Under the pieces are notes generated by a model. That model saw nothing but the letters and a program-made list of their open reading frames with translations, made no database searches and was not told where the DNA came from. DNA of 64,000 nt from Desulfosoma sp. (GTDB lineage Bacteria; Desulfobacterota; Syntrophobacteria; Syntrophobacterales; DSM-9756). The stretch spans positions 32,001 through 96,000 of the forward strand of contig JBBFKW010000010.1 in the NCBI GenBank assembly GCA_037481835.1, given 5' to 3'. Each line of letters opens with the position of its first letter. The first letter of the stretch is position 1. The translations under genes and the position numbers were made by a program. Positions 494-60,823 of the stretch are shown here, piece after piece.

Positions 494-559
494 GAGGGAT
501 ATTATGCTACGCTCGGTACGAAGTCCATCCACCGGTCAGGCCTTGGAAGGGGGAAGCGC

Positions 560-5364: not shown

Positions 5365-5376
5365 GAAAGACCTCTC

Positions 5377-12225: not shown

Positions 12226-12272
12226 GACATGCCGCCTTCTTTGCTTGGGATGTTCGAAGACGTTCCGCTCCT

Positions 12273-28664: not shown

Positions 28665-28815
28665 GGACGGCTCCTCACGGCTGCGGGTGCACGGAATCAA
28701 AGCCGGCGCCGCATATGGGAAAAGCGGGATTGGTCTTCATTTGATGCCATAGCTGTGCTACAAAAAAAAGGAATGTGAATTTTTTCGATTATGCGCGCGC
28801 TCACAAGCCGGAATC

Positions 28816-29715
28816 ATGAAACGGGAAGACGTCCATCGCATCCTCTATACCCTGCGCTTCTACCATGTGACGCTGTCCTTGGAAATCGACCGAGACCGTT
28901 GCATCCGCTGCGACTTATGCTCTCTGGCCTGCCCTCGCCAGGCCTTGCGCATCGATGCGGATGAGCGCGGCCTGGAGATCCACCTGGACCATGAGCGATG
29001 CGTCTTTTGCGAAGTCTGTGCATACGTCTGCCCTGTTGCCGCCATTGCTTTGCAATACGAAGACCATTCCAAGGAAATCTTGCGTCGATCGGGCGGCCTT
29101 CCGCCCATTCCGGAAAAACTCCGGGTGGACGTGGAGCGCTGCCCCCACCGGTGCGAACTCCTGGAATTCGAGCAAGACCACTGGTGCCGGCAGCAGCGCC
29201 GCCTCGTGGAGAACCGCGAAACCGAATGTCCCAAGTATTGTTTCCGCTGCGTGCAGAACTGCCCTCGCGGGGTCTACCGGGAAACCCCCGAGGGGACCTC
29301 GCCCGATCCCGCGCCCTGTCTTCGGTGCGAGCACTGCCAGGAAACGTGCCCTTACGGGTCCATCCGGGTGAGCCCCCTTTTTCGAGGCCGAGTGGTCCTG
29401 GATCCCGACCGATGCCCCAGCGACTGCGCTCTATGCATGGAGGTCTGTCCCGTTAAGGTGATCGAGCGGCGCGACGGCCGGGTCACCCTCATTCGGGATT
29501 CCTGCGCCTTGTGCGGCGCCTGCGCCAGCGTATGCGATCAAGACGCCGTGCGAGTCGTCCGGGAGGCGGTGCTTGTGCCCGAAGCCGACACGTGCGCCCT
29601 GTGGGATCGCATCCGGGAGGCCCTGACGGAAGGCCTGGGCCGTGACGGACCCGTTGTGACGGCGGCCCCCGAACCGTCGTCTTCCCGGGGTGTGCAGGCA
29701 GGGCATCAGCCATGA
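28816..29715 (+). CDS. Polyferredoxin (FwdF/MvhB-like)
   Basis: About six CxxCxxCxxxC(P)-type motifs. Confidence 0.85.
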   Translation: MKREDVHRILYTLRFYHVTLSLEIDRDRCIRCDLCSLACPRQALRIDADERGLEIHLDHERCVFCEVCAYVCPVAAIALQYEDHSKEILRRSGGLPPIPEKLRVDVERCPHRCELLEFEQDHWCRQQRRLVENRETECPKYCFRCVQNCPRGVYRETPEGTSPDPAPCLRCEHCQETCPYGSIRVSPLFRGRVVLDPDRCPSDCALCMEVCPVKVIERRDGRVTLIRDSCALCGACASVCDQDAVRVVREAVLVPEADTCALWDRIREALTEGLGRDGPVVTAAPEPSSSRGVQAGHQP

Positions 29716-31805
29716 GCGGCATCGGGGTCTATATTTGCCATTGCGGCCAAAACATCGCCGGGGTCATCGATGTAGAGGCCTTGCGCCGGCAGGTGGCCCG
29801 GTGCAGTGACGCGGCGGTCGTCAAAACCAACGTGTTTTGCTGTTCCGAGCCGGGCCAGAAGGAGATTCAGGCGGACATCGCGGAGCACCGCCTGGAACGG
29901 ATCCTTGTTGCGGCGTGTTCCCCCCGGCTTCACGAAGTGACCTTTCGGCGCACCATATCCCAAGCCGGCCTCAATCCCTATCTGCTGGAGATGGCCAACA
30001 TCCGGGAACAGTGTTCCTGGGTCCATCATGGGATGGAGGCTCAGGACAAGGCCCTTGATCTCATCCTCATGGGGTTGGCGCGCCTGGCCCGGCTGGTGCC
30101 GCTCCAAGACCGCGTCGTTCCCGTAACCCGCCGGGCTTTGGTCGTCGGAGGCGGCGTAGGCGGCTTGAGCGCGGCTCTGGAACTGGCCGATTGCGGGGTC
30201 CCCGTCGTCTTGGTGGAAAAGAGCGCCCGTCTCGGCGGGCAGGCTCTGCGATGGAACATTGCCGTTCCCGAAGTGGATCCCCTGTCGTGTTTCGTGCGGC
30301 CTTTGATCACACGGGCGCACCTTCACCCCCGCATTCACGTCCTGGAAGGGGCCACGCTGGAAGACGTGCAGGGTTACGTGGGCCGTTTTTCGGCATCCAT
30401 TCACACCCCGGCGGGTCCGTGCACGGAAGAGGCCGGCGCCCTGGTGGTGGCCACCGGCTTTGAACCGTACACGCCGGAGCTTTCCCGGTATCCCTTCGCC
30501 GCCCTGCCCCAGGTCATGACGTCGGTCCAATTGGAAGAGATCTTCGCAAAAGACGGCCGAAACCGGCACGGCATTCCTTCGGCCTTGGAAGGAGTCCGCA
30601 CCGTCGCCTTCCTCCAGTGCGTCGGCTCACGTCTCGACGACGAATACCCCCATTGTTCGCGCATCTGCTGCGCCGTCACATTGAAGCAGGCTCTGGCCCT
30701 TCGGGCTCTCGGCATGGAGGTTCGGGTTTTTCATCGGGATATCCGCCTTTATGACAAAAACCACGAAGAAGCACTCTACGGGCGAGCGCGCCGCGAGGGC
30801 GTTCAATTCCACAGGGGAGTGCTCAACGCCGTGGAACCCGATGCCGCAGGCGGGTTGATCCTTCATTGGCATGAGGAATTTCTCCAGGAAGACTTCCGCT
30901 TTCCGGTGGACCGGCTGATCTGCGCCGTGGGGCTCCGCCCCCGCTCTGATGCCGAATCCCTTCGACGGGTCCTGCGTCTTGCGGCAAGCCAGGACGGCTT
31001 CCTTCTGGAAGCCCACCCCAAGCTCCACCCGCTGGAATCGGCCGTGGAAGGAGTCTTCCTTGCGGGATCGTGCCAAGGGCCGAAAGACGTCCGGGAAACG
31101 GTGGCCGCATCCGTCGGGGCCGCCGCCAAGGCCTACCAATTGCTGTGCAGGGATGTCCTGCAGCTGGACGGCATGATCGCCGTCATCGACCGGGACCGTT
31201 GTGTGGGCTGCGGCACGTGTGTGGTCGAATGCCCGTATCAGGCCATCGCCCTTCAAGAAGAGGAAGACGGCGCACTCAAAGCCCACGTGGAAACAGCGGC
31301 CTGCAAAGGCTGCGGCGTGTGCGCCGGAGGATGCCCCACGGAAGCCGCCGATCATCTGGGCTATCCTCTCGATGCGCTCAAGGCCATGGTCGATGCGGCC
31401 CTTGCGGACCGTGCCCGGGAGAAGATCGTGGCTTTCTGTTGCCATTGGTGCGCCTATGCGGGAGCCGACGCGGCAGGAGTGTCCCGCATCCCTTATCCGG
31501 CCAATGTGCGCATTGTGCGGGTCCCGTGTTCCGGCCGCATCGGCCCCCGATTGGTGCTCCACGCATTCAAGAAGGGCGCCGGCCGCGTCATGGTCGCCGG
31601 GTGCCATCCGCCGGGGGACTGCCACTACATTTCGGGGAATCTGCGGTTCGAAAGTCGCGTCCCTCGCATTCGAAAGCTTCTTTCCAGGAAGGGATTCGAT
31701 CCGGACCGGTTTTCGTATCATTGGATCTCAGCGACGGAAGGCCCTCAGTTTCAGCAGATCGTGCGCCGATTGGCCGAAGCGCTGGAAGCCGAGATCCACT
31801 CATGA
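29712..31805 (+). CDS. hdrA: HdrA-like flavoprotein fused to C-terminal MvhD
   Basis: CHCGQNI, NIREQCSWVH, GGGVGG, QCVGSR..CSRICC, 2x[4Fe-4S], then FCCHWCAYAGAD..VPCSGRI..GC..GDCHY. Confidence 0.88.
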   Translation: MSGIGVYICHCGQNIAGVIDVEALRRQVARCSDAAVVKTNVFCCSEPGQKEIQADIAEHRLERILVAACSPRLHEVTFRRTISQAGLNPYLLEMANIREQCSWVHHGMEAQDKALDLILMGLARLARLVPLQDRVVPVTRRALVVGGGVGGLSAALELADCGVPVVLVEKSARLGGQALRWNIAVPEVDPLSCFVRPLITRAHLHPRIHVLEGATLEDVQGYVGRFSASIHTPAGPCTEEAGALVVATGFEPYTPELSRYPFAALPQVMTSVQLEEIFAKDGRNRHGIPSALEGVRTVAFLQCVGSRLDDEYPHCSRICCAVTLKQALALRALGMEVRVFHRDIRLYDKNHEEALYGRARREGVQFHRGVLNAVEPDAAGGLILHWHEEFLQEDFRFPVDRLICAVGLRPRSDAESLRRVLRLAASQDGFLLEAHPKLHPLESAVEGVFLAGSCQGPKDVRETVAASVGAAAKAYQLLCRDVLQLDGMIAVIDRDRCVGCGTCVVECPYQAIALQEEEDGALKAHVETAACKGCGVCAGGCPTEAADHLGYPLDALKAMVDAALADRAREKIVAFCCHWCAYAGADAAGVSRIPYPANVRIVRVPCSGRIGPRLVLHAFKKGAGRVMVAGCHPPGDCHYISGNLRFESRVPRIRKLLSRKGFDPDRFSYHWISATEGPQFQQIVRRLAEALEAEIHS

Positions 31806-31917
31806 CGGCGGGTTGATAAGAAAGAAGGCTTGGAGTGAATCCGAATCGGCGAGAATGGGTTTGGGCCGGCTGCAGGAGCCGATTTGGCCGCGATCCCCAT
31901 CGCCGGCATGTGGAGCA

Positions 31918-33663
31918 ATGACGAACCGAGAAAGCCATCCCCCGACGCGCGGCGCGCGCGTCCTCCTGTGCCGCTGTCCTGAAAGGCACTCCCGGCAGGA
32001 TCTCGACCGCACGGCCGAGTCGCTTGAGGTGTGGGGGATTTCCGTGCGCCTCGTGGATGCGCTGTGTGAACGGGAAACCTTCGCGGAGGAAATGTCGGGA
32101 GCTGCACTTGCCGATGTGGAGCGGCTCGTCATCGGCGCCTGTTCGCCCTTTTTGATCGGCGACCTTCTGGAGCAGGCTCTTTGCGATCGATCCCATCTGA
32201 GGTGGACTTTGGTGGACATCAAGGACGCCGGGGATGCCCTCGCTTTAAGCGGTATCCTTAAAAGTCGCCTTCATACCCTGGATCCGTCCTTTTCCACAGC
32301 GTGCAGATACCCTTCCGCCGGTCTGCCCCACGAGGCCATCCGTCCGCTCGGCGCCAAGGCCCCTCGGCGGGTTTTGGTCATCGGAGGGGGTGTTGGGGGC
32401 TGTCAGGCGGCGCTGGACCTTGCGGGCATGGGCATTCCCGTAACCCTCGTGGAAGCCGAAGACTCCCTCGGGGGAAACATGGCCCGGCTGGACAAAACTT
32501 TTCCCACCCTGGATTGTTCCATTTGCATCCTAGGGCCCCGGCTGGTGGACGCCGCCTCGCACCCCCATATCACGGTGCTTGCATCGAGCCGGGTGAAGAG
32601 AATCAGCGGCCGGCCGGGGCATTTTCTGGCGGAAATCGAACACCGCCCCCGCTACGTGGACATGAATCTCTGTTCCGGGTGCGGGGCGTGCAGCGACGTG
32701 TGCCCGGTGATCGTCCCCAGCGCCTGGAACGCCGGACTCCGGCCGCGCAAAGCCATAGGAATCGTGTTCGAACAGGCCGTGCCGCTGCGGGCGGCCATCC
32801 GAAAGGACTTTTGCATTGATTGTGGCCTGTGCGAAAAGGCGTGCGAAAGGAAGGCCATCCGCCTGGCCGAGGAGCCTCAGGTGAGCCGCCTGCACACGGC
32901 AGCGGTGGTCCTTGCCGAAGGGGCGCGCCTTTTCAAGGCATCGCGGCTCGGCGCCTACGGCTACGGCCGCTTTCCTGAAGTCCTCACCAACTTGGAATTC
33001 GAACGGCTCGTGTGCGCCACGGGTCCCACTCAGGGAGCCCTCATCACCCCCAGCGGGTCGAGACCTCGATCTGTGGCCTTCATTCAATGCGCCGGGTCCC
33101 GCAACCGCCGCTTCCTTCCCTACTGCTCCATCACATGCTGCACGGCGAGCATCAAGGAAGCCATCCTGGTCCTGGAGCACGAACCGGAAGCCGCCGTCAC
33201 GATTTTCTTCAACGACATTCGAACGCCTGGAAAGAGTTTTGAAGGTCTTTTTCTTCGGGCGCGCGAGAGGGGTGTGCGTTTCGTCAAGGCCCTGCCCGAC
33301 CGCGTGGAACGGGCCAAAGACGGCAAGCGACTTTCGGTGCATTATCGGGCGGCGTCCCATCCCGGAGTCCAAAGTCTGGAAGCCGATCTCGTGGTTCTCG
33401 CCGTAGGGGTGGAAGCCCCCAACGCGGACCACCGGTGGGTCTTGCGCGCACCGCCCCGGCGGGACCGTTACGGCTTCTACGAGGAAGCCTACTATTGGGG
33501 CGGCCAGATGCACAGCACCGTGCCCGGGATATTCCTCATCGGCGGGTGTCACGGCCCCCGGGATATCACCCAGACGGTGACCGAAGCCTCGGCCGCGGCG
33601 GCTCACGTGGCCAAGTGGCTTCGGCGCGTTTCGGCATCCTCGTCGGAGGGCTCGGGACCATGA
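31918..33663 (+). CDS. hdrA: Second HdrA-like protein
   Basis: GGGVGG, LDKTFPTLDCSICI, inserted ferredoxin, QCAGSR..CSITCC; lacks C-terminal ferredoxin; start uncertain. Confidence 0.82.
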   Translation: MTNRESHPPTRGARVLLCRCPERHSRQDLDRTAESLEVWGISVRLVDALCERETFAEEMSGAALADVERLVIGACSPFLIGDLLEQALCDRSHLRWTLVDIKDAGDALALSGILKSRLHTLDPSFSTACRYPSAGLPHEAIRPLGAKAPRRVLVIGGGVGGCQAALDLAGMGIPVTLVEAEDSLGGNMARLDKTFPTLDCSICILGPRLVDAASHPHITVLASSRVKRISGRPGHFLAEIEHRPRYVDMNLCSGCGACSDVCPVIVPSAWNAGLRPRKAIGIVFEQAVPLRAAIRKDFCIDCGLCEKACERKAIRLAEEPQVSRLHTAAVVLAEGARLFKASRLGAYGYGRFPEVLTNLEFERLVCATGPTQGALITPSGSRPRSVAFIQCAGSRNRRFLPYCSITCCTASIKEAILVLEHEPEAAVTIFFNDIRTPGKSFEGLFLRARERGVRFVKALPDRVERAKDGKRLSVHYRAASHPGVQSLEADLVVLAVGVEAPNADHRWVLRAPPRRDRYGFYEEAYYWGGQMHSTVPGIFLIGGCHGPRDITQTVTEASAAAAHVAKWLRRVSASSSEGSGP

Positions 33664-34934
33664 CGCAAAAGACGTTCACGTCCCTTGTGTGCTGCGGCTG
33701 CAGCTGCCTGTGCGATGACATCGACGCCGTCATGGAGGGCGACCGGGTCGTGGAAACGGCCAACGCATGCCGATGGGGAGCGGCCCGATTCCTGGGTTTG
33801 AAGAAGTTCAGCAGGGCGCTCGTTCGAGCCCGTGTCCAAAGCAGCCGGAGGCGTCCGGATGCTCGGGGACGGCTTGATGTCTCCTGTGCGGAAGCCGTCT
33901 CGGTGTGCCGAGATTACCTGTTTTCCGCACGGCGCGTGGTGGCCTACGGGCTGGGCCAAATGTCCATCGAAGCCCTACAGATTCTCATGGCGGGCCTCCG
34001 GGATCGTGAAACCATGTGGATTCCCTCGGACGGTCCCCTTCTTCAAGCCTTCGTGGAAACCTACAGCCGGCATGGCCCGGCCCTCACCAACCTGGAATGC
34101 GTCCGAAACCAGGCTGACCTGGTGGTCTTCTGGGGCGCCAATCCTGTGCGAAGCACGCCGCGCCTTTTGAGCCGCTACGCCCTTTTCCCCCGAGGGCGCT
34201 TTACCGAAAGGGGCGCCGAGGACCGCAAGGCCTGGACTGTGGATATCCAGACGACGGAAATGGAACGGGTCACTCAAATGGTGACCATCCCTCCGGATCA
34301 GGAAAAGGCCTGTATCCAGGCGCTGCGCCGAGCTTACCGCGGCCTGCCCCTGGAAGCCCCGCCCGGAGTTTCCGCTAAAACCTTGTCCATGCTGCTTGGA
34401 GACGTGGAAAAGAGTCGATACCGCGTTTTTTTCTTCGGCCGAGGCCCCCTGTATCACGCGGGCGGGGATGCCGTGCTGGACGAACTGGCGTCCTGGGTCA
34501 CGGAACTGGGCGCCTCCGCCCCAACCTTCCTCATGCCTGTGCCGGGAGACTTCAACAGCATGGGGTTTCTCCAGGTTTTCCTGAGTGGCGGCGGCCTGGC
34601 CGATCCGCTGTGGCGCGTGCAGGGGGATGTGCACGGCTGGGAGCCCCGAACCGGAGATGTTCTGCTCGCCTTGTCCGGCGATTGTTTCTGGTTTTTGACG
34701 GATGATCAAAAGCGCGCCGTCCGTAAGCACCGGATTCCCGTCGTGGCTCTATCGGCCCACGAAACCATGACGACGGCGGAAGCGGACGTGGTTGCGGCCG
34801 TGGGGCTCCAAGGACTGGACGTCACGGGCCGGGCGTCACGGCTGGACGGCGTCACCCTTTGTGCGGAAAAGTTGTGGGACGGGACAGCGGCATCCGACGC
34901 CGCCGTCGTCCGGGATTTGTTCGAACTTATGTGA
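33660..34934 (+). CDS. Formylmethanofuran dehydrogenase subunit B (FwdB/FhcB)-like protein
   Basis: CCGCSCLCDDI..NAC, RNQADLVVFWGANP..PR..SRY..FPRGRF..RG..DR; ATG overlaps upstream stop. Confidence 0.8.
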   Translation: MTQKTFTSLVCCGCSCLCDDIDAVMEGDRVVETANACRWGAARFLGLKKFSRALVRARVQSSRRRPDARGRLDVSCAEAVSVCRDYLFSARRVVAYGLGQMSIEALQILMAGLRDRETMWIPSDGPLLQAFVETYSRHGPALTNLECVRNQADLVVFWGANPVRSTPRLLSRYALFPRGRFTERGAEDRKAWTVDIQTTEMERVTQMVTIPPDQEKACIQALRRAYRGLPLEAPPGVSAKTLSMLLGDVEKSRYRVFFFGRGPLYHAGGDAVLDELASWVTELGASAPTFLMPVPGDFNSMGFLQVFLSGGGLADPLWRVQGDVHGWEPRTGDVLLALSGDCFWFLTDDQKRAVRKHRIPVVALSAHETMTTAEADVVAAVGLQGLDVTGRASRLDGVTLCAEKLWDGTAASDAAVVRDLFELM

Positions 34935-34947
34935 GCCTTAGGACCCC

Positions 34948-36342
34948 ATGCGGCCGAAAACCCTGCTCCTTCAATCCGGCACCGTTTTCGACCCCGTCAC
35001 GGGGTGCGAGGGCACGAGGCGGGATATCGCCGTGTGCGGGGAGACGATCGTCTCCATGGAACACGTTTCGGACGTGGACGAGATCGTGGACGTCTCCGGC
35101 ATGCTGGTCACCGCGGCGGCTGTGGACTGCGCCGCCCACGTGGCCTTTCCCGGGGTGTGGGGTCTTCGCGCCGCGGGGCTCTTTCCGGATGCGCAAACCA
35201 TCGCGCGCCGCTACGCCGAAAGAGGATTCGCCCACGTGCACGAAAGTTGGGCACCCCTTGTGGACTGGGGAACGGTGCAGGCCGAGTGGGACCGGATCCC
35301 CGGCCCGGACGTCTCCGTCGGGTTGTTGCTCCCCCTCTATGATCTGACGGCGGCCATGGACGCTCAGGACGTGACGGTCGCCCACAGCGTCCTGTGGCAT
35401 TTTCACGCCCTCTTGGGAATTCGCGGGTTCTACCTTCCCGAGCCGCGCGTGCGCTTTCGCGATGAAGTGTACAAACACCGGGAAAAAGCGGCAGAGGAGG
35501 TGCTGCCGTTTCTGAAAGCGGCGTGGGAAGGACTGCCGGGGCCCATGGTCCTCCCAGCCCGGTCCCTCAACGCGGAAGATCGTGCCGCTTTGCCTTCCGG
35601 AGCGCACGTGCAACGCGTTACGGACTTGAACGACAGGGAAGCCGGGGGGTCTCTTTCGGCTTTGCTCGAAACGGTGCGTCCGGATCTGAGTGCAGACTTG
35701 GGACTTTCATGGCCGGAAAAGAGCGTGGAGCTCACCTGGGCGGCGCCCGCCGGCGGCATCGGAGGTCGCCTCTGGGATGTGGGGGCTTTTCTCATGCTCA
35801 AGGCGGCACCGGTTCCCAACGAGGATTTTCGCAACGACGCGGAGACGGTCCAAGTCCTGTCGCAGGGGATCGCCGAAGGCTGGGCCTTGTCGTGCCGGCA
35901 TGCCAATCTGGCTCTTGTGGAGGACTGGGAAGGGCTGATTCGGGCATTCTTGGAGGTGTGGACCGTTCGGCAATGGCTCCTGACGACCCGCGCCCATGCC
36001 GCGAAGGCGCTGGGTTTTTCGGATCGAGGCCATCTTGGGCCGGGAGCCCGGGCCAACCTGGCCCTATACCCGGAACCGGCGGACGAGACGCCTGCAGCGT
36101 GGGCGAAAGCCTTGAGCCGATGCCTCCGCCTCTACGTGGGCGGGCGCGAAGTTTACGACGCCCGGCTAGGCGGTTTGAAGCCCTCGGCCCGCATCGGTCG
36201 CGCGCGCGAAACGGCGAAAGCGGCCGCCGATTTGGGGGTGCTCGCCCTTTTTTCGGACGGATTGAGTCTTCGGCCGGAAAGCCTCCGGCGCCTTGCGCCC
36301 AGGGTTGAAGGAGCCATAGGGCATGATTCGCAAGATTCTTGA
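34948..36342 (+). CDS. FwdA/FhcA-like amidohydrolase-fold protein with degenerate metal site
   Basis: GTVFDP..G..RDI, RYAERGF, TRAHAAKALG..DRGHLGPGA.ANLALY. Confidence 0.72.
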   Translation: MRPKTLLLQSGTVFDPVTGCEGTRRDIAVCGETIVSMEHVSDVDEIVDVSGMLVTAAAVDCAAHVAFPGVWGLRAAGLFPDAQTIARRYAERGFAHVHESWAPLVDWGTVQAEWDRIPGPDVSVGLLLPLYDLTAAMDAQDVTVAHSVLWHFHALLGIRGFYLPEPRVRFRDEVYKHREKAAEEVLPFLKAAWEGLPGPMVLPARSLNAEDRAALPSGAHVQRVTDLNDREAGGSLSALLETVRPDLSADLGLSWPEKSVELTWAAPAGGIGGRLWDVGAFLMLKAAPVPNEDFRNDAETVQVLSQGIAEGWALSCRHANLALVEDWEGLIRAFLEVWTVRQWLLTTRAHAAKALGFSDRGHLGPGARANLALYPEPADETPAAWAKALSRCLRLYVGGREVYDARLGGLKPSARIGRARETAKAAADLGVLALFSDGLSLRPESLRRLAPRVEGAIGHDSQDS

Positions 36343-36772
36343 GCACCTGCCCAAAACGGACTGCGGGATGTGCGGGATGACCTGCGCCGATTTCGCAGGT
36401 TTTCTCCTTTCCGGAGACCTCAGCCCGCAGGACTGTCCCGTGCTTCAAGAGGATGCCTATGCGGCCCAGAGGGAGGCCCTGGCGACCCTTTTGGAAAGCC
36501 TCGCGGCGCGCGCCAAATCCGGCCATCTTCTGGATCCGGACAAGTGCACCGGATGCGGCATTTGCCTCATTGTGTGCGAATACCACGTGGCCAACGACCC
36601 TGAAAGCCGCCGCGGCAAAGGGCCGAACAAAGACGCCAAGGTGGTCCTTCGCATCGTCAACGGTCGGGTGGTTTTAGCCGATGAAACCCTGTGCACCCGA
36701 TTGTTGCAGGCGGCGGACAAATGCAGCAAATGCCAAGACCATTGCCCCACCCAGGCCATCGTGCTCATCTGA
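36323..36772 (+). CDS. Fe-S domain plus ferredoxin protein
   Basis: LPKTDCGMCGMTCADFA..CP, CTGCGICLIVC, CSKCQDHCP. Confidence 0.8.
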   Translation: MIRKILEHLPKTDCGMCGMTCADFAGFLLSGDLSPQDCPVLQEDAYAAQREALATLLESLAARAKSGHLLDPDKCTGCGICLIVCEYHVANDPESRRGKGPNKDAKVVLRIVNGRVVLADETLCTRLLQAADKCSKCQDHCPTQAIVLI

Positions 36773-36787
36773 AAACTGGGAGCGAGT

Positions 36788-37273
36788 ATGGAAAACACCT
36801 CCTCCGAAATCCCTCTCCTTCAGGGCGATGCCGGTTTTGCCCAAGAAGTCGCGGCGGGTCCCGGCGGGGACACCCTGCCCTTGTGCTATCAGTGCGGGAC
36901 GTGCACGGGCTGCTGCCCTGTGGGGGCGGTGGATGAAGGGTTCAGCCCGGCCCTGATCATCCAGTGGATCCGGCTGGGACTTCGCGAGCGGGTTCTCGGC
37001 TCACCCAAGATATGGCTGTGCCTCCAATGCCATCGGTGTTCCTTCTCATGCCCGCAAGGCGTGCGATTTGCGGACATCAACGGCACGCTTCGACACATGG
37101 CCGTTCGGGAAGGGTTCGTGGATGCCGCGAAGGCGCAAGAGTTTGCGGCTCTGGAGAGGGATCTCAGCGCCTTGCGCTGCGCCGTTTTGGACCGGGCGAT
37201 GCGAGAGGCCCCCAACGCAGCGCTCTCCACGGAGGAACTCGTCCGGGAGGCCCTGAGGGACCTCCATGGCTAG
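36788..37273 (+). CDS. hdrC: Heterodisulfide reductase subunit C-like
   Basis: CYQCGTCTGCCP, IWLCLQCHRCSFSCPQGV. Confidence 0.85.
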   Translation: MENTSSEIPLLQGDAGFAQEVAAGPGGDTLPLCYQCGTCTGCCPVGAVDEGFSPALIIQWIRLGLRERVLGSPKIWLCLQCHRCSFSCPQGVRFADINGTLRHMAVREGFVDAAKAQEFAALERDLSALRCAVLDRAMREAPNAALSTEELVREALRDLHG

Positions 37274-40200
37274 CGGTCTTCGCCGAAAAGAAAGTCCGTG
37301 CGGGGACCCGCTGCAGACGATCGTCGTCGTGGGCGGTGGTGTGGCGGGAATGCACGCGGCCCTGCAGGCCGCCGACCTGGGACACCCCGTGGTGGTGCTG
37401 GAAAGGGACTTGGCCCTGGGCGGACACATGGCCCAGCTGGACAAGACCTACCCCACGCTGGACTGTTCCCTGTGCATCTTGTCGCCTCGGCTTCTCGCTT
37501 TCGGCCGGCACCCGAGGATTCGCGTGCTCGTGCGGGCTCGGCTGGAAAACGTGGAAGGCTGCGCCGGCTCCTTCGTCTGCACCGTCACCCAGGAACCCGC
37601 TTCCGTCAATGCGGAAAAGTGTATCGGGTGCGGCTCCTGCGCTCGAGCCTGCCCCGTGGAACAGCCCGATCCTTTCAATCTCGATCTCGGCCCGACCAAA
37701 GCCATCCGGACCCTCTACCCCCAGGCCTTTCCTTCCACGCACGCCATAGACCGCCGATACTGCCTGCATTTTCAGGGGAAAGACTGCCGCCGCTGCGCGG
37801 AAGTCTGCCCCACGGGGGCCATCGACTTTGAAGAGCGGCCTCACGTCATGGAACTGGAAGCAGGGGCCGTGATTCTGGCCGGAGGGTTCGATCTTCTCGA
37901 CCGTCGATTCATCGCTCATCCCCATTGGTTCGATTCCCCGCACGTGGTGACCAACCTGGCCTTGGAACGGTATCTCAGCGCCACGGGTCCCACACGCGGG
38001 GTGGTACATCCCCGGGGCCTGATCGCACCACCCCGGCATATCGTCTTCGCCCAGTGCGTGGGATCCAGGGATCCGGTCCACGGCGTCCCGTATTGTTCGG
38101 GGTATTGCTGCACCGCGGCTCTGAAACATATCCAACTCACGGCCGCTCTGCCCCACGTGGAGCGCATCACCCTGTGCGCCATGGACGTGCGGGCCCACGG
38201 CCGGGACTGCGAACCCTTCTTCCGCCGGGTGCAGGCCATGGACAAGGTCCGCCTCCTCCACGGCCGGGTGGCGGACATCGTCCCCTTGGGCACGGACCGC
38301 GGGGTGGAGGTTTTGGCGTCACACGGCGGCAAACCGCTGAGGATGGAAGCGGACCTGGTCGTCTTGGCCATGGGCATGCGCCCGTCCGCGGAGGCCCTTC
38401 GGATCGCCAAGGCTCTGGGACTGCAGACGGATCCCTTCGGGTTCGTTCGGATCAAGGAACATCACACGGTGCACACGTCCCGGGACGGGGTCTATGCCTG
38501 CGGGGCCTTCATGGGGCCCAAGAGTATCCCGTCCACGGTTCAGGAAGCCTGCGCGGCGGCCATCGCCGCCAGCGCCCGATTGACGATCCGGCCCGAAGCC
38601 TCCCTCAGCGATGTTCCCGCCACGGCTCCATCTCCCGCCCCCCAAGCCTCCGTCGCCAAAACTATCCAAGAACCCGACGGGCCCGCGCCGCGTGGGGCGT
38701 CCCAAACCGCCCTTCGGATCGGGGTCTTCGTCTGCCGGTGCGGCACGAACATCGCCGGGGTCATCGATACGGCCGAGGTGGCCCGATGGGTGAAAAAGCT
38801 TCCCGATGTGGCCTACGCCGCCGAAAATCTTTTTTCCTGTTCCACGGACGCCACCACCCGCATGGCCCGCATCATCCGGGAAAAGGGCCTGAACCGCATC
38901 GTCGTGGCGGCTTGTTCGCCGCGAAGCCATCTCCCGGTCTTTCAAGAGGTCTTGGCCAAGGCGGGGCTTCCCCCCGGATACATCCGCATGGTCAACATCC
39001 GGGAACAATGTTCCTGGGTGCATCCGGATAAACCCCACGAGGCCCTGGTGAAGGCCAAGGCGCTCCTCGCCGGCACCCTGGCCCATGTTCGCGCCGCCTG
39101 GGCTGCTCCCCCCATGGCCTTCCCCGTAACGCCGTCGGCCCTCGTGCTGGGAAGCAGCGTCGCAGCCCTGACGGCCGCCCTGCGCCTCGCGGACAACGGG
39201 ATTCGGGTTCTTGTGGCGGAATCCGGAGACACCTTCGGGGGGCGGCTGTCCCAAGCCTATTTCGGACGGCCGGAAGTGAACGTCAACCGGCTCTATCGCC
39301 ATTTCCTCAGCCGCATTCGAACCCAACCGCTCCTGCGCGTGCTCATGCACACCGAACTTGCAGACTGCCGGGGAAGCCTGGGACGTTTTCATGTGGAACT
39401 TCGGCAGCGGCGTCCAGGGGCTGCATCCGCCGCCGAGCGCATTGAAGAAACCGTAGGGGCCATCCTCATCGCCGTAGGGGCCGATGTCTGGAAACCGGAC
39501 AACCTCTACGGGTATGGGCACAGCCCCTTGGTGCTGACCCAAGCCGAACTCGCAACGGCGCTGGAACGCGGGACCGTGGATCTCGCCCGGGCCCGCACCG
39601 TTTTCATGATCCAGTGCGTGGGATCCCGAAACGACGAACGCCCCTACTGCAGCCGCTCATGCTGCCAGCAGGCCGTCTCCCATGCTTTGGAACTCAAGGA
39701 CCACTTCCCGCACCTTCAAATCACCATCGTCCATCGGGATATGCGCACCTACGGGCTGGCGGAAATCACTTATCAAAAAGCGCGGCAAGCGGGGATCCGG
39801 TTCCTGCGCTACGACGAAAAACAGCCGCCCCGGGTGGAACCCACCCGATTCGGTCGACGCTCCACCCTGGATATCCGGTGGGACGATCCCGACACCGGCG
39901 ATTTTTTCCACGAACGCGCCGATCTCCTGGTTTTGAGCACCGCGACGGTGCCCAGCCCGGAAAACCGGCACCTCGCCTCAATCCTTCGGGTGCCGCTCAG
40001 CGCCGATGGCTTTTTCTTGGAACGACACGTCAAGCTCGCCCCGGTGGAAACGGCCGTAGAGGGCATTTTCATCGCCGGTCAGTGCCATTCCCCGAAGACC
40101 ATCACAGAGGCCTTGGTCCAAGGCGATGCGGCGGCGGCCAAGATGCTGGCGGTCCTCCGACAAGGGAGCGTGCGCCGGGCCGCCTTCGTGGCGGTCATCG

Positions 40201-40412
40201 ATCCCGGCCGGTGTTCGCGATGCTTGAGCTGTGCAGCGGTCTGCCCCGCACAGGCCGTAACGGTTCCGGCAGTGGGGCCGCTCCGAGTGGACCCCGGGGC
40301 GTGCCAAGGCTGCGGCCTGTGCGCGGCCGAATGCCCCGCCCGAGCCATCGATGTGGCCGGAGCCGAAGAGGCCGGCTTACTCGGAGGGATGCCGTCCGTC
40401 TTTTGCGCCTGA
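37266..40412 (+). CDS. hdrA: Large HdrA-like protein with two HdrA modules
   Basis: GGGVAG, LDKTYPTLDCS, QCVGSR..CSGYCC; second module CRCGTNI, NIREQCSWVH, QCVGSR..CSRSCC; C-terminal 2x[4Fe-4S]. Confidence 0.85.
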   Translation: MASGLRRKESPCGDPLQTIVVVGGGVAGMHAALQAADLGHPVVVLERDLALGGHMAQLDKTYPTLDCSLCILSPRLLAFGRHPRIRVLVRARLENVEGCAGSFVCTVTQEPASVNAEKCIGCGSCARACPVEQPDPFNLDLGPTKAIRTLYPQAFPSTHAIDRRYCLHFQGKDCRRCAEVCPTGAIDFEERPHVMELEAGAVILAGGFDLLDRRFIAHPHWFDSPHVVTNLALERYLSATGPTRGVVHPRGLIAPPRHIVFAQCVGSRDPVHGVPYCSGYCCTAALKHIQLTAALPHVERITLCAMDVRAHGRDCEPFFRRVQAMDKVRLLHGRVADIVPLGTDRGVEVLASHGGKPLRMEADLVVLAMGMRPSAEALRIAKALGLQTDPFGFVRIKEHHTVHTSRDGVYACGAFMGPKSIPSTVQEACAAAIAASARLTIRPEASLSDVPATAPSPAPQASVAKTIQEPDGPAPRGASQTALRIGVFVCRCGTNIAGVIDTAEVARWVKKLPDVAYAAENLFSCSTDATTRMARIIREKGLNRIVVAACSPRSHLPVFQEVLAKAGLPPGYIRMVNIREQCSWVHPDKPHEALVKAKALLAGTLAHVRAAWAAPPMAFPVTPSALVLGSSVAALTAALRLADNGIRVLVAESGDTFGGRLSQAYFGRPEVNVNRLYRHFLSRIRTQPLLRVLMHTELADCRGSLGRFHVELRQRRPGAASAAERIEETVGAILIAVGADVWKPDNLYGYGHSPLVLTQAELATALERGTVDLARARTVFMIQCVGSRNDERPYCSRSCCQQAVSHALELKDHFPHLQITIVHRDMRTYGLAEITYQKARQAGIRFLRYDEKQPPRVEPTRFGRRSTLDIRWDDPDTGDFFHERADLLVLSTATVPSPENRHLASILRVPLSADGFFLERHVKLAPVETAVEGIFIAGQCHSPKTITEALVQGDAAAAKMLAVLRQGSVRRAAFVAVIDPGRCSRCLSCAAVCPAQAVTVPAVGPLRVDPGACQGCGLCAAECPARAIDVAGAEEAGLLGGMPSVFCA

Positions 40413-40451
40413 AGATACGGTTTGCACCAAAACGCATGCAAGGAGCCGACG

Positions 40452-41441
40452 ATGCAAACGGAAGCGCCGGAAAGAAATTTGGGACTGGATCTGGTTCGCG
40501 TGACGGAGGCCGCGGCGCTGGCCGCCGCGCGGTGGCTCGGCCGTGGGGACGGAAAAGCCGGAGACAAGGCGGCTGTGGATGCCATGCGGTTGAGCTTCAA
40601 TGCGGTGGATATCGACGGCCTCGTCGTCATCGGCGAAGGGGAAAAGGACAAGGCCCCCATGCTCTACAACGGGGAAAAACTCGGCACGGGACGCGGTCCC
40701 AAAGTGGACGTGGCCGTCGACCCCGTGGAAGGGACGCGCCTCTTGGCTTACGGCAGGCCCAACGCCATCTCCGTGGTGGCCATGGCCCCCCGAGGATCCA
40801 TGTACAACCCGGGCCCCGCCTTCTACATGAACAAGCTGGCGGTTCCGCCCCAGGCACGCGATGCCATCGATCTGGACGCCTCTCCCGAAGATAACCTCAA
40901 GAAGATCGCCAAAGCCCTGGGAAAGGACGTGGACGACCTCACCGTGTTCGTCCTGGACAAACCGCGCCACAAGGACCTCATCGCCCACATCCGAAAAGCC
41001 GGCGCCCGAATCCAGCTCCACACCGACGGCGACGTGGCGGGCGCGCTCATGGCCGTGTTGCCTGACACGAGCGTGGATGTCATGATGGGCACCGGCGGAA
41101 CGCCCGAAGGGGTTCTCGCGGCGGCGGCCATCAAGGTCGTGGGCGGCGAAATGCTGGGGCGCCTCGATCCTCAATCGGCCGCCGAACGGGAGGCGCTGCT
41201 CAAGGCCGGCTACGACCTGCACAGGGTGCTCTCTACCAACGACTTGGTGCGAAGCGACGACGTCTTCTTTGCGGCCACGGGCATCAGCGGGGGCGATTTC
41301 CTCCCGGGCGTGCGCTTCACAGGTCGGGGTGCCGTGACCCACTCCCTGGTCATGCGAGGAAAAACGGGCACGGTGCGCCGCATCGAGGCGTTCCATTCCT
41401 TCGCCCAGCTCATGCAAATCAGCGCCATCAGCTATGATTGA
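40452..41441 (+). CDS. glpX: Class II fructose-1,6-bisphosphatase
   Basis: VRVTEAAA, IGEGEKDKAPML, VDPVEGT, GTGGTPEG, FAATGI. Confidence 0.95.
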   Translation: MQTEAPERNLGLDLVRVTEAAALAAARWLGRGDGKAGDKAAVDAMRLSFNAVDIDGLVVIGEGEKDKAPMLYNGEKLGTGRGPKVDVAVDPVEGTRLLAYGRPNAISVVAMAPRGSMYNPGPAFYMNKLAVPPQARDAIDLDASPEDNLKKIAKALGKDVDDLTVFVLDKPRHKDLIAHIRKAGARIQLHTDGDVAGALMAVLPDTSVDVMMGTGGTPEGVLAAAAIKVVGGEMLGRLDPQSAAEREALLKAGYDLHRVLSTNDLVRSDDVFFAATGISGGDFLPGVRFTGRGAVTHSLVMRGKTGTVRRIEAFHSFAQLMQISAISYD

Positions 41442-41510
41442 AATCCGCCGGATCCAAGGCCTTCGGCCGGAACAGAAGACGGGCGCCATGGATGCCGAAG
41501 GCCGGCCGGC

Positions 41511-54090: not shown

Positions 54091-54541
54091 GATGCACCTC
54101 TCCTGTCTCGCCGTCCCGTCACTTGTGCCTTGCCTGGAGCAGGCAGGTCCTCCAGCCTGAGAAATCTTCTCGCCCATCACCCCCTTTCCCGGACAATGTG
54201 CCGTCGCCGCGCGCGGCGAGCGGGTCGCTTTGGCCCAGATGCGGGCCTTTGGGCTCTATGGGCCTAGGGCATGATCCCCACGGGCCCCTGGCTGGCTTCC
54301 CGGAAGCGTGCATGAGGGCACCGCGGCCGCACAAGAGACTCGACAAAGAAATCGAACACAGGCATACATAAACGGACGTGGAATTCTCGCTCAGGAGGTG
54401 CCCTCACACCCCCTGGATTCCAGCTTGGTATCATTTTAGTTCTTTTTTTCTCAAATGGTCAACGGCCAAGAACGAGGTTTCTTTCTCAGGGACGACACCT
54501 CAGGCTGGGCGCGGCGGCAAAGGGCGGAAAGGAGGGAGATC

Positions 54542-60674: not shown

Positions 60675-60823
60675 TGGGAATCTCTTCCGAACAGGGGTTT
60701 GCACCATGGGCAGGCGGTGTGGCCGGGGCACGGGACGCCGTGCCCCGAAGGTGTCGGAGAGCCCAAAGGATGGGGGCCGAAGCCCTCCGGTCTCCCGGCT
60801 CAGGGCCGGCGTCAAAGGAAGGT

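What the first reader, a model, noticed from the sequence alone, without database searches (positions are those of the whole stretch)
28816..40412. Bacterial Hdr-MvhD-polyferredoxin cluster built around Fwd-like subunits, lacking HdrB
Seen: tightly packed operon polyferredoxin, HdrA-MvhD, HdrA, FwdB-like, FwdA-like, Fe-S protein, HdrC, double HdrA; four HdrA modules; no HdrB, FwdC/D, Ftr, hydrogenase or Flx in the cluster. Established: in methanogens HdrABC-MvhD bifurcates electrons and delivers them via the polyferredoxin FwdF to FwdAB for CO2 reduction. Inference: a sulfate reducer carries a remodelled version of that supercomplex with unknown donor and acceptor.
Basis: partly seen in the sequence, partly recalled or inferred. 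Interest (0 to 1): 0.8.

Follow-up and report, generated by a model that had tools for sequence, protein, structure and literature searches.

The report
Bacterial Hdr operon with dead Fwd-like pair
A heat-loving sulfate reducer carries a conserved eight-gene operon for a large flavin and iron-sulfur electron-splitting machine, in which the two subunits that look like a methanogen's CO2-fixing enzyme have lost their catalytic residues, so they most likely act as a scaffold, or as a new kind of active site, and not as a CO2 reductase.

Summary
Window 28816-40412 (+) is a tightly packed eight-gene operon: polyferredoxin, HdrA-MvhD fusion, HdrA, FwdB-like, FwdA-like, RnfB-like Fe-S protein, HdrC-like protein and a fused double HdrA. 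It has no HdrB, FwdC/D, Ftr, hydrogenase or Flx genes. Two other genomes keep all eight genes in the same order: an uncultured Desulfosoma MAG and Desulfacinum hydrothermale, the latter with unrelated flanks. All eight genes are under purifying selection (dN/dS 0.08-0.20).

The FwdB-like protein keeps the FwdB fold and the N-terminal [4Fe-4S] cysteines. It has lost the Cys/Sec-His metal-ligand pair and the Arg-Gly-His motif, and the operon has no D subunit. The FwdA-like protein keeps the FwdA/FhcA fold but only 2 of the 6 ligands of the binuclear metal site. CO2 reduction to formyl-methanofuran is therefore very unlikely.

The four HdrA modules form two complementary pairs. The fused one resembles BamE of class II benzoyl-CoA reductase, with one degenerate flavin site.

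My best reading is a soluble Hdr-type bifurcating or confurcating complex whose Fwd-like pair is an Fe-S-bearing scaffold or a re-purposed site. Known precedents for such dead relatives are ElpA, FhcB and NuoG. The electron donor and acceptor remain unknown. I found no description in seven literature searches. I class it as a new variant of a known kind.

The parts
28816..29715 (+). g1, polyferredoxin (about six [4Fe-4S] sites), FwdF/MvhB-like
   Evidence: Pfam Fer4 families. NCBIfam FwdF 95.4 bits, below the cut-off of 375. 28 Cys, 4 CxxCxxCxxxC and 2 CxxxCxxCxxxCP motifs. 78% and 69% identical in L001 and L002.
29712..31805 (+). g2, type-A HdrA module fused to MvhD. It has a full N-terminal Cys domain, FAD motif GGGVGG, a Lys at the HdrA Lys409 position and a C-terminal 2x[4Fe-4S] ferredoxin domain. 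It has no inserted ferredoxin domain.
   Evidence: The alignment to 5odc_A skips residues 236-318 of that chain. 5odc_D (MvhD) matches at 1.3e-39. Motifs are conserved in 3 of 3 genomes.
31918..33663 (+). g3, type-B HdrA module. It has a degenerate N-terminal domain, FAD motif GGGVGG, LDCSIC, an inserted 2x[4Fe-4S] ferredoxin domain and the Lys. It has no C-terminal ferredoxin domain.
   Evidence: Start codon and RBS. 8rvv_A matches at 6e-103. 83% and 61% identical in L001 and L002. Motifs.
33660..34934 (+). g4, FwdB-like protein. The [4Fe-4S] cysteines are kept; the W/Mo-site residues are lost.
   Evidence: TIGR03129 205.9 bits against a cut-off of 327.8. 5 of 5 PDB sequence hits are FwdB/FmdB, best 7.6e-44. 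AF2 model pLDDT 91.9. Foldseek top 7 are FwdB/FmdB, TMq 0.84-0.86. Ser-Asp replaces Cys/Sec-His and PGD replaces RGH. C11, C14, C18 and C37 are invariant in 20 of 20 sequences.
34948..36342 (+). g5, short FwdA/FhcA-like amidohydrolase-fold protein with a degenerate binuclear metal site
   Evidence: TIGR03121 64.6 bits against a cut-off of 392.75. AF2 model pLDDT 87.5. Foldseek top 8 are FhcA/FwdA/FmdA, TMq 0.66-0.71, E about 1e-21, against about 1e-13 for other amidohydrolases. Ligand columns. dN/dS 0.20.
36323..36772 (+). g6, small Fe-S protein: an RnfB-like N-terminal 'FeS' domain plus two ferredoxin-type cluster motifs
   Evidence: PF04060 and Fer4 families. 12 Cys. It is the best conserved gene of the operon, at 90% and 73% identity.
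36788..37273 (+). g7, HdrC/QmoC-N-terminal-like 2x[4Fe-4S] protein with no membrane part
   Evidence: QmoC 78.2 bits and HdrC TIGR03290 77.3 bits, both below their cut-offs. Two CxxCxxCxxxC motifs. No hydrophobic segment.
37266..40412 (+). g8, fused HdrA pair. The N-terminal type-B module has FAD motif GGGVAG, LDCSLC, the Lys and an inserted ferredoxin domain. The C-terminal type-A module has the N-terminal Cys domain and a C-terminal ferredoxin domain, but GSSVAA in place of GxGxxG and Ser in place of the Lys.
   Evidence: The degenerate features are present in 3 of 3 genomes. 82% and 63% identical in L001 and L002.

Best explanation
The operon encodes a soluble, cytoplasmic, HdrB-less complex of the heterodisulfide-reductase (HdrA) type. 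It moves electrons through flavins and about 25-30 iron-sulfur clusters (my own rough sum of the Cys motifs, not counted by any search) and probably bifurcates or confurcates them.

Shown:
- There are four HdrA modules of two complementary kinds. Type A (g2 and the C-terminal half of g8) has the N-terminal Cys domain and the C-terminal ferredoxin domain. Type B (g3 and the N-terminal half of g8) has the inserted ferredoxin domain.
- Three modules keep the FAD motif and the lysine that marks bifurcating HdrA flavins. The fourth, the C-terminal half of g8, has lost both, like the structural second half of BamE.
- g4 and g5 keep the FwdB and FwdA folds. g4 keeps its [4Fe-4S] cysteines.
- The CO2-reducing metal site (Cys/Sec-His, Arg-Gly-His, D subunit) is gone, as are 4 of the 6 ligands of the formyl-condensing binuclear site.
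- All eight genes are conserved in order across two genera and are under purifying selection.

Inferred:
- g2+g3 and the two halves of g8 each form an HdrA-like heterodimer.
- The MvhD domain of g2 is the adaptor through which electrons enter.
- One branch leaves through the inserted ferredoxin domains to the polyferredoxin g1.
- The other branch runs through HdrC-like g7 and RnfB-like g6 to the [4Fe-4S] cluster of g4.
- The g4/g5 pair is not a formyl-methanofuran dehydrogenase. It serves as an Fe-S-bearing scaffold or docking module, as the pterin-less ElpA, FhcB and NuoG do.
- The physiological donor and acceptor are not encoded in the operon and remain unknown.
For: - Domain and family assignments.
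- HdrA module anatomy: alignments to 5odc_A and 8rvv_A and the 12-module alignment from 3 genomes.
- BamE precedent: a fused HdrA dimer with one bifurcating FAD next to a Lys and a second, structural TrxR domain. Source: bioRxiv 10.64898/2026.04.10.717634, section 7, read in full.
- Complementary tandem or fused HdrA in ANME archaea: PMC9012536, passages.
- Loss of FwdB catalytic residues: only 1 of 20 aligned sequences, the canonical P0151, has Cys-His and RGH. The window protein and its Desulfosoma/Desulfacinum relatives have Ser-Asp/Glu and P(G/T)D. The same is seen against 9sfi_Q and 5t5i_B.
- Loss of FwdA ligands: 6 of 6 canonical FwdA have HxH, Lys and DHPN. The window protein has AxH, no Lys, no strand-5 His and RHAN.
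- Folds are retained. Complex I NuoG, FhcB and ElpA chains also appear among the structural neighbours of g4.
- ElpA is a pterin-less FdhA homologue inside an Hdr complex: PMC12350162, passages.
- Loss of the metallopterin in Fhc is tied to the absent D subunit: PMC11656701, section 2.2, read in full.
- Synteny: 8 of 8 genes in L001 and in L002, with unrelated flanks in L002.
- dN/dS is 0.08-0.20 for all 8 genes.
- There are no convincing hydrophobic segments. The 4 windows at or above 1.6 (3 in g1, 1 in g8) fall, by my reading of the positions, on the Cys-rich motif at residue 62 and just before the degenerate FAD-motif strand near residue 621.
Against: - No physical evidence for the complex or for the wiring.
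- An acidic residue is conserved at the His119-equivalent position: Asp or Glu in the Syntrophobacteria clade and Asp in the Desulfobaccales relatives. In the close clade a Ser sits at the Cys position. Ser- and Asp-ligated Mo/W-bisPGD enzymes exist (recalled, not from a call), so a metal site with another ligand is not excluded.
- g5's close family has invariant His and Glu residues (H64, H96/H98/E99, H177, H220) that could form a different metal site.
- A pure scaffold is an odd thing to keep as two large proteins under purifying selection.
- No substrate-binding module for a donor is visible in the operon, so 'bifurcation' rests on homology only.
- A D subunit or FwdC could be encoded elsewhere in the genome. 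This was not testable.
Confidence: 0.55

Rival explanations
1. The Fwd-like pair is a re-purposed catalytic module. Electrons from one branch of the HdrA flavins reach the [4Fe-4S] cluster of g4 and reduce (or are taken from) an unknown substrate at a rebuilt site in g4 and/or g5. The pair would then take the functional place of HdrB or of the tungsten enzyme BamB. Two coupled HdrA pairs could supply unusually low-potential electrons, as in class II benzoyl-CoA reductase.
For: - Both proteins are under purifying selection, with dN/dS 0.14 and 0.20.
- g5's close family has many invariant polar residues, including C61, H64, H98, E99, H177-R178-E179-K180, H220, D250 and H362.
- An acidic residue is conserved at the former His119 position across two clades of FwdB-like proteins.
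- HdrB, the usual catalytic end of the HdrC branch, is missing, although an HdrC-like gene sits two genes downstream of the pair.
- The pairing of short FwdA-like with FwdB-like proteins appears to extend to Desulfobaccales. Five pairs of hits share the same longest-contig length. The family has at least 273 clusters at E<=1e-10.
- BCRII shows that HdrA modules can feed a pterin enzyme.
Against: - The residues at the former W site differ between clades: IPS(D/E)GP against EP(A/G)DLAF.
- Across the wide FwdA-like family almost none of the candidate new ligands is conserved. Only H96 is nearly invariant among 35 sequences.
- There is no D subunit to hold a pterin.
- g4 and g5 are the two least conserved genes of the operon, at 76/50% and 67/45% identity.
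Confidence: 0.25
2. One reading: a working, remodelled Hdr-polyferredoxin-Fwd CO2-reducing and fixing supercomplex. The missing FwdC/D, Ftr and methanofuran pathway would be encoded elsewhere.
For: - The gene set parallels the methanogen supercomplex: HdrA, MvhD, polyferredoxin, FwdB and FwdA homologues.
- The supercomplex itself is known in methanogens. For PMC13518236 and PMC13580544 I saw only the search listings and the start of the abstracts.
Against: - The Cys/Sec-His and Arg-Gly-His residues of the CO2-reducing site are absent from g4 in the window and from 19 of 20 aligned relatives.
- 4 of the 6 binuclear-site ligands are absent from g5.
- Both proteins score far below the curated family cut-offs.
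- There is no FwdC/D or Ftr gene in the operon or the window.
- g5 lacks three insertions present in all 6 canonical FwdA sequences aligned.
Confidence: 0.04
3. The Fwd-like genes are decaying relics carried along in an Hdr operon and have no function.
For: They are the fastest-evolving genes of the operon and have lost their catalytic residues.
Against: - The reading frames are intact in 3 of 3 genomes, which diverge to as little as 45-50% identity.
- dN/dS is 0.14 and 0.20 at dS of about 1.1.
- The predicted folds are confident.
- Start and stop codons are coupled to the neighbouring genes.
- Relatives form a large family.
Confidence: 0.03

Closest known systems
Methanogen Hdr-(Mvh/Fdh/Elp)-Fwd/Fmd supercomplexes (for example PDB 7bkb, 9sfi, 9sw6)
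   Same: - HdrA, MvhD, a polyferredoxin and homologues of FwdB and FwdA are encoded together.
- The best sequence and fold matches of g2, g3, g4, g5 and g8 are chains of these complexes.
   Different: - Bacterial host.
- No HdrB, FwdC/D/G, hydrogenase or Fdh.
- Four dissimilar HdrA modules in place of a homodimer.
- The FwdB-like and FwdA-like proteins lack the catalytic residues.
Elp-Hdr complex of Methanothermobacter marburgensis (ElpA, a pterin-less FdhA homologue)
   Same: A catalytically dead member of the Mo/W-pterin enzyme family is kept as an Fe-S-bearing subunit of an Hdr complex (PMC12350162, passages). Chain 8rvu_D is among the structural neighbours of g4.
   Different: - ElpA is truncated, whereas g4 is full length.
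- Elp has the F420-binding ElpB as its donor site, and nothing like it is in this operon.
- HdrBC are present in Elp-Hdr.
Formyltransferase/hydrolase complex FhcABCD of methylotrophs (PDB 6s6y)
   Same: - It is a bacterial relative of Fwd in which the B subunit has lost the metallopterin and there is no D subunit (PMC11656701, section 2.2).
- FhcA is the top fold match of g5 (TMq 0.71).
- FhcB is a fold neighbour of g4 (TMq 0.62).
   Different: - Fhc has FhcC and the formyltransferase FhcD.
- FhcA is an active hydrolase in the complex that releases formate (recalled; no call shows its ligands), whereas g5 has lost 4 of 6 ligands.
- There is no Hdr link in Fhc.
- By sequence g4 is closer to archaeal FwdB (E 1e-38 to 1e-44) than to FhcB (no hit at E<=0.01).
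Class II benzoyl-CoA reductase Bam[(BC)2DEFGHI]2
   Same: - A bacterial, HdrA-based complex with a fused HdrA dimer (BamE), in which one half carries the bifurcating FAD next to a Lys and the other half is structural.
- It has an MvhD-like adaptor (BamF).
- Ferredoxin-type subunits lead low-potential electrons to a pterin-family enzyme.
- g8 shows the same asymmetry.
   Different: - The operon has no BamB (AOR-type tungsten enzyme), no BamGHI and no HdrBC-like BamD.
- A second, unfused HdrA pair is present.
- The end module is Fwd-like.
Tandem and fused HdrA paralogues of ANME archaea
   Same: The N-terminal domain and the Cys197-type cysteine are present in a complementary pattern between paired modules, suggesting heterodimers (PMC9012536, passages). 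g8 shows this pattern.
   Different: - The ANME clusters are archaeal and pair with FrhB/FdhB-type or other input modules.
- No Fwd-like pair was reported in the passages I read.

Membership tests
FwdB/FmdB, formylmethanofuran dehydrogenase subunit B (TIGR03129) | Score at or above the curated family cut-off | tested here: not met
   205.9 bits against a cut-off of 327.8, although the match covers the full length.
FwdB/FmdB, formylmethanofuran dehydrogenase subunit B (TIGR03129) | FwdB fold and N-terminal [4Fe-4S] cysteine motif | tested here: met
   Foldseek top 7 are FwdB/FmdB, TMq 0.84-0.86. C11, C14, C18 and C37 are invariant in 20 of 20 sequences.
FwdB/FmdB, formylmethanofuran dehydrogenase subunit B (TIGR03129) | Cys or Sec ligand of W/Mo with the adjacent His119, and the Arg-Gly-His290 motif near the metal | tested here: not met
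   Ser-Asp replaces (Sec/Cys)-His and Pro-Gly-Asp replaces Arg-Gly-His in the alignments to 9sfi_Q and 5t5i_B and to P0151. The residue roles come from PMC11656701, section 2.2. The number Arg288 is recalled.
FwdB/FmdB, formylmethanofuran dehydrogenase subunit B (TIGR03129) | Partner D subunit that holds the metallopterin together with B | tested here: not met
   No PF01568 or FwdD match among the 8 operon proteins or the other window ORFs scanned. The rest of the genome could not be searched.
FwdA/FmdA, formylmethanofuran dehydrogenase subunit A (TIGR03121) | Score at or above the curated family cut-off | tested here: not met
   64.6 bits against a cut-off of 392.75. The 8 of 8 short relatives scanned score 71-143 bits, while 11 of 12 long ones pass at 539-793 bits; P0062 scores 218.8.
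FwdA/FmdA, formylmethanofuran dehydrogenase subunit A (TIGR03121) | Binuclear metal site: four His, one Asp and one carboxylated Lys | tested here: not met
   In alignment A2 the window protein keeps the second His of HxH (H64) and one strand-6 His (H220). The first His, the Lys, the strand-5 His and the Asp of DHPN are replaced. All 6 canonical FwdA sequences keep them. The ligand set is as given in PMC11656701, section 2.3 passage.
FwdA/FmdA, formylmethanofuran dehydrogenase subunit A (TIGR03121) | FwdA/FhcA-type amidohydrolase fold | tested here: met
   The model has pLDDT 87.5. The top 8 Foldseek hits are FhcA/FwdA/FmdA at E about 1e-21, against about 1e-13 for other amidohydrolases.
HdrA, the electron-bifurcating flavoprotein of heterodisulfide reductase | TrxR-like domain with a GxGxxG FAD motif and the Lys next to the flavin (Lys409 of 5odc_A) | tested here: met
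   Met in 3 of 4 modules (g2, g3 and the N-terminal half of g8). The C-terminal half of g8 has GSSVAA and Ser. This holds in 3 of 3 genomes.
HdrA, the electron-bifurcating flavoprotein of heterodisulfide reductase | Full domain set in one chain (N-terminal Cys domain, inserted ferredoxin, C-terminal ferredoxin) and the NCBIfam equivalog cut-off | tested here: not met
   No module has all three domains. The best scores are 713, 444 and 765 bits against a cut-off of 1100 for HdrA2.
HdrABC heterodisulfide reductase | HdrB with CCG domains (non-cubane clusters), the disulfide-reducing site | tested here: not met
   No CCG/HdrB match in the operon or the scanned window ORFs. HdrC-like g7 scores 77.3 bits against a cut-off of 160.
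FhcABCD formyltransferase/hydrolase complex | FhcC and FhcD (Ftr) subunits, and an active FhcA metal site | tested here: not met
   No FwdC/FhcC or Ftr family match in the operon or window. The g5 ligands are lost.
Class II benzoyl-CoA reductase (Bam) | BamB AOR-type tungsten subunit and the BamGHI input module | tested here: not met
   No such family among the 8 operon proteins. Only the BamE-like asymmetry of g8 is shared.

The most novel reading that the evidence does not exclude
The Fwd-like pair is a new redox enzyme, not a scaffold. A [4Fe-4S]-fed site would be built from the gutted FwdB/FwdA folds. It would perhaps use the conserved acidic residue at the old His119 position or the His/Glu cluster of g5. 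It would be driven by two serially coupled HdrA bifurcation modules. That would make this a second bacterial example, after class II benzoyl-CoA reductase, of stacked bifurcation used to reach a very difficult reduction, in completely oxidising or autotrophic Desulfobacterota.
Probability: 0.2. Interest if true: 0.85.

Novelty: new variant of a known kind. Interest (0 to 1): 0.6.

Why it matters
1. It adds a conserved bacterial architecture to the family of HdrA-based electron-bifurcating machines. The architecture has four unlike HdrA modules in two complementary pairs, no HdrB, and a Fwd-derived end module. Two cultured hosts are named by the searches: Desulfacinum hydrothermale, where the whole operon was seen, and Desulfosoma caldarium, where only the g4 and g5 relatives were seen. 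This makes the question 'what do HdrB-less Hdr complexes of sulfate reducers do?' directly testable.

2. It gives another case where members of the Mo/W-pterin and amidohydrolase families appear to survive as non-catalytic or re-purposed parts. ElpA, FhcB and NuoG are earlier cases.

3. There is a practical point. The short FwdA-like and FwdB-like proteins form a large family in Desulfobacterota. The family has at least 273 clusters at E<=1e-10, with hits named Desulfobacca acetoxidans, Desulfobaccales and Syntrophobacterales. One source often labels them 'formylmethanofuran dehydrogenase subunit A/B'. Metagenome surveys that count such annotations as markers of methanogenesis or C1 metabolism would probably be misled. 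I did not test how KEGG-style assignment treats these proteins.

Tried and rejected
- Locus search with the wide 35-sequence FwdA-like alignment failed because there was no conserved stretch. The survey of neighbourhoods is therefore small. The Desulfobaccales relatives could not be placed in their gene context.
Taxon names for a distant relative came instead from a homologue search.
No test of g4-g6, g4-g5 or g4-g7 binding was made.
- The promoter and terminator scan of 28500-41700 gave 0 promoter-like sites (1.6 expected) and 22 terminator-like sites (13.6 expected, sd 3.5), all but one or two of them inside reading frames. I draw nothing from it.
- The first synteny table used g3 one base out of frame and gave false identities of 54% and 40%. 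This was corrected to 83% and 61%. The first module alignment was redone for the same reason.
- Seven literature searches found no description of a bacterial Hdr operon with FwdAB-like genes. The review by Appel et al. 2021 on prokaryotic HdrA modules is not in the library and was seen only as a reference. It may already list this neighbourhood.
- I considered and rejected three functional links. A link to the divergent PPDK-like gene or to the downstream glpX is rejected because both flank the operon in the Desulfosoma MAG but not in Desulfacinum. A Qmo-like membrane complex is rejected because there is no hydrophobic segment. A class II BCR is rejected because there is no BamB or BamGHI.

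Full report
**What is there**

The interval 28816-40412 holds eight genes on the + strand. Their products are:
- g1, a polyferredoxin;
- g2, an HdrA-MvhD fusion;
- g3, an HdrA-like protein;
- g4, a FwdB-like protein;
- g5, a FwdA-like protein;
- g6, a small Fe-S protein with an RnfB-type 'FeS' domain;
- g7, an HdrC/QmoC-N-terminal-like protein;
- g8, a 1048-residue protein with two HdrA modules.

Two gene starts needed correction against the longest ORFs. g3 starts at ATG 31918 behind a GGAG. g4 starts at 33660. The protein collection holds a 424-residue protein identical to that g4 call. The Atlas holds the 464-residue g5 letter for letter.

Successive genes overlap or are separated by at most 15 nt, apart from a 112-nt gap before g3. 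No protein has a convincing membrane segment. No HdrB/CCG, FwdC, FwdD, Ftr, hydrogenase or Flx family matched any of the eight proteins or the other window ORFs I scanned.

The window also carries sat. Its flanking genes are 92-93% identical to those of an uncultured Desulfosoma MAG. A Desulfosoma-like sulfate reducer is therefore a fair description of the host.

**Conservation**

They are L001 (an uncultured Desulfosoma sp. MAG) and L002 (Desulfacinum hydrothermale DSM 13146). Both hold all eight genes in the same order.

| Gene | Identity to L001 (%) | Identity to L002 (%) |
|---|---|---|
| g1 | 78 | 69 |
| g2 | 85 | 68 |
| g3 | 83 | 61 |
| g4 | 76 | 50 |
| g5 | 67 | 45 |
| g6 | 90 | 72 |
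| g7 | 80 | 55 |
| g8 | 82 | 63 |

My first g3 figures (54% and 40%) came from a translation one base out of frame and are void.

In L001 the flanks (a PPDK-like gene, glpX, a histidine kinase) are shared with the window. In L002 the flanks are a HAD hydrolase, an M24 peptidase, an acyltransferase and recN. The eight genes therefore travel as a unit of their own.

Nei-Gojobori dN/dS between the window and L001 is 0.08-0.20 for all eight genes, at dS 0.7-1.1. None of them is a relic.

**The Fwd-like pair**

g4 is a clear homologue of FwdB/FmdB:
- All five PDB sequence hits at E<=0.01 are FwdB/FmdB chains, from 7.6e-44 to 2.3e-24 and over the full length.
- A confident model (pLDDT 91.9) has FwdB/FmdB as its top seven structural matches, with TMq 0.84-0.86.

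It nevertheless scores 205.9 bits against a family cut-off of 327.8, and the residues that make FwdB an enzyme are gone:
- The (Sec/Cys)-His pair aligns with Ser-Asp.
- The Arg-Gly-His motif aligns with Pro-Gly-Asp.

In a 20-sequence alignment only the one canonical FwdB (P0151) has these residues. All 20 sequences keep the four N-terminal cysteines of the [4Fe-4S] cluster.

The review PMC11656701 (section 2.2, read in full) states three things. [quoted passage not shown] This operon has no D subunit.

g5 is a far more distant relative of FwdA. Sequence matches are confined to the two ends (E about 4e-9), and TIGR03121 scores 64.6 bits against a cut-off of 392.75. The fold is nonetheless FwdA/FhcA. 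With a model of pLDDT 87.5, the top eight Foldseek hits are FhcA, FmdA and FwdA chains (TMq 0.66-0.71, E about 1e-21). Other amidohydrolases follow at about 1e-13.

I aligned it with six proteins that pass the FwdA cut-off. The window protein keeps only the second His of HxH and one later His. It lacks the first His, the carboxylated Lys, the strand-5 His and the Asp of the DHPN motif. It also lacks three insertions. Those six ligands are described as perfectly conserved in the studied enzymes (PMC11656701, section 2.3 passage).

**Family size**

An exhaustive search of 1.84 billion representative proteins with g5 found only 76 hits at E<=1e-3, 27 at E<=1e-10 and 3 at E<=1e-30. The hits split into a short family of about 450 residues and canonical FwdA of 546-574 residues:
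- 8 of 8 short proteins scanned fall below the FwdA cut-off.
- 11 of 12 long proteins pass it.

The short family is nevertheless not tiny. Searching with its Desulfobacca acetoxidans member (P0018) gave 273 clusters at E<=1e-10. Names where given were Desulfobaccales, Syntrophobacterales and Thermodesulfobacteriota. One source often labels them 'formylmethanofuran dehydrogenase subunit A'.

FwdB-like proteins at 33-38% identity to g4 come from the same kinds of organisms. Six close and five distant FwdA-like/FwdB-like hit pairs share an identical longest-contig length. This suggests, but does not prove, that the two genes lie on the same contig across the wider family. Whether the Desulfobaccales pairs sit next to Hdr genes could not be checked.

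**The HdrA modules**

I aligned the modules to solved HdrA structures and built a 12-module alignment from the three genomes. Two kinds of module emerge.

| Feature | Type A (g2; g8 residues ~485-1048) | Type B (g3; g8 residues 1-~480) |
|---|---|---|
| N-terminal Cys domain | Complete | Degenerate in g3, absent in g8 |
| Inserted ferredoxin domain | Absent | Present |
| C-terminal two-cluster ferredoxin domain | Present | Absent |
| MvhD | Present in g2 only | Absent |
| DCSxC cysteines | One Cys (at the Cys197 position) in g2; none in the g8 half | Both present |

g2, g3 and the N-terminal half of g8 keep GxGxxG and the Lys that lies next to the flavin in HdrA (Lys409 of 5odc_A, by my count). 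The C-terminal half of g8 has GSSVAA and a Ser in all three genomes.

This is the asymmetry reported for BamE of class II benzoyl-CoA reductase. BamE is a fused HdrA dimer with one bifurcating FAD beside a Lys and a second, structural half (bioRxiv 10.64898/2026.04.10.717634, section 7). The complementary distribution of domains between paired modules was also noted for tandem and fused HdrA of ANME archaea (PMC9012536, passages).

**How it most likely works**

The module anatomy, the residue losses and the conservation are shown by the calls above. The following steps are inferred:
- Two HdrA-type heterodimers form: g2+g3, and g8 on its own.
- The MvhD domain is the entry adaptor.
- One exit runs through the inserted ferredoxin domains to the polyferredoxin.
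- The other exit runs through HdrC-like g7 and RnfB-like g6 to the [4Fe-4S] cluster of g4.

This wiring follows the gene order and the analogy with HdrABC, Fwd and BCRII.

Given the lost residues, I read g4/g5 as an Fe-S-bearing scaffold or docking module. There are precedents:
- ElpA, a pterin-less FdhA homologue inside an Hdr complex (PMC12350162, passages).
- FhcB.
- NuoG of complex I, which appears among g4's fold neighbours. Its lack of pterin is recalled, not from a call.

**The main rival**

The main rival is that the pair has acquired a new active site. Three findings speak for it:
- Purifying selection on two large proteins.
- A conserved acidic residue at the old His119 position in two clades.
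- A set of invariant His, Glu and Cys residues in g5's close family.

Three findings speak against it:
- The old metal site differs between clades.
- Almost none of g5's candidate ligands is conserved in the 35-sequence family.
- g4 and g5 are the least conserved genes of the operon.

**Novelty**

Hdr-type complexes with swapped modules are a known kind. I found no description of this combination in a bacterium (four unlike HdrA modules, no HdrB, a gutted FwdAB pair) in seven full-text searches. The key review of prokaryotic HdrA modules was not readable here. I class the finding as a new variant of a known kind. The electron donor, the acceptor and the role of the Fwd-like pair remain open.

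Noticed in passing
window 40422-41441 (+): A class II fructose-1,6-bisphosphatase gene (glpX, TIGR00330, 381 bits) starts 9 nt after the stop of g8 and may be read through from the operon. The same arrangement is in the Desulfosoma MAG (93% identity) but not in Desulfacinum.
   Followed up: partly
window 25782-28700 (-): A 972-residue protein, divergently transcribed 115 nt upstream of g1. Only its first half matches pyruvate,phosphate dikinase (PPDK_N; TIGR01828 279 bits against a cut-off of 843). It is 93% identical in the Desulfosoma MAG. The second half has no family match.
   Followed up: partly
window 10843-15438 (-): A double-cubane-cluster reductase-like gene (14287-15438) lies next to a fused reductase/activase gene (12273-14342, acyl-CoA dehydratase activase domain), with a sigma-54 activator (10843-12477) beside them. 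This looks like an ATP-driven low-potential reductase system of unknown substrate.
   Followed up: no
window 15570-17982 (-): A radical SAM/SPASM protein (16534-17982) lies next to a protein with a partial NAD synthase-like domain (15570-16547). This could be a peptide or cofactor maturation pair.
   Followed up: no
window 494-1400 (+): A nucleotidyltransferase (Polbeta/NTP_transf_2) gene and a HepT-like ribonuclease gene overlap. This looks like an MNT-HEPN toxin-antitoxin pair.
   Followed up: no
window 52831-54180 (-), 59259-61076 (-) and 3664-6941 (-): Sulfate adenylyltransferase (sat), an FAD-linked oxidase (GlcD/D-lactate dehydrogenase type), and a CbiM-type permease gene (6324-6941) with a duplicated ECF/CbiO-type ATPase gene (3664-5364).
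   Followed up: no
window 31918-33663 and L001 6514-8259: A translation of g3 one base out of frame still gave a tblastn match of 54% identity over 577 residues to the orthologous locus. At this G+C content and DNA similarity, an out-of-frame ORF can pass for a conserved protein.
   Followed up: yes
proteins P0020 and P0062 (representative search): P0020 is a short FwdA-like protein that still has the HxH motif and the Lys. P0062 is 550 residues long and scores 218.8 bits, below the FwdA cut-off. Both look like intermediates between canonical FwdA and the degenerate short family.
   Followed up: partly
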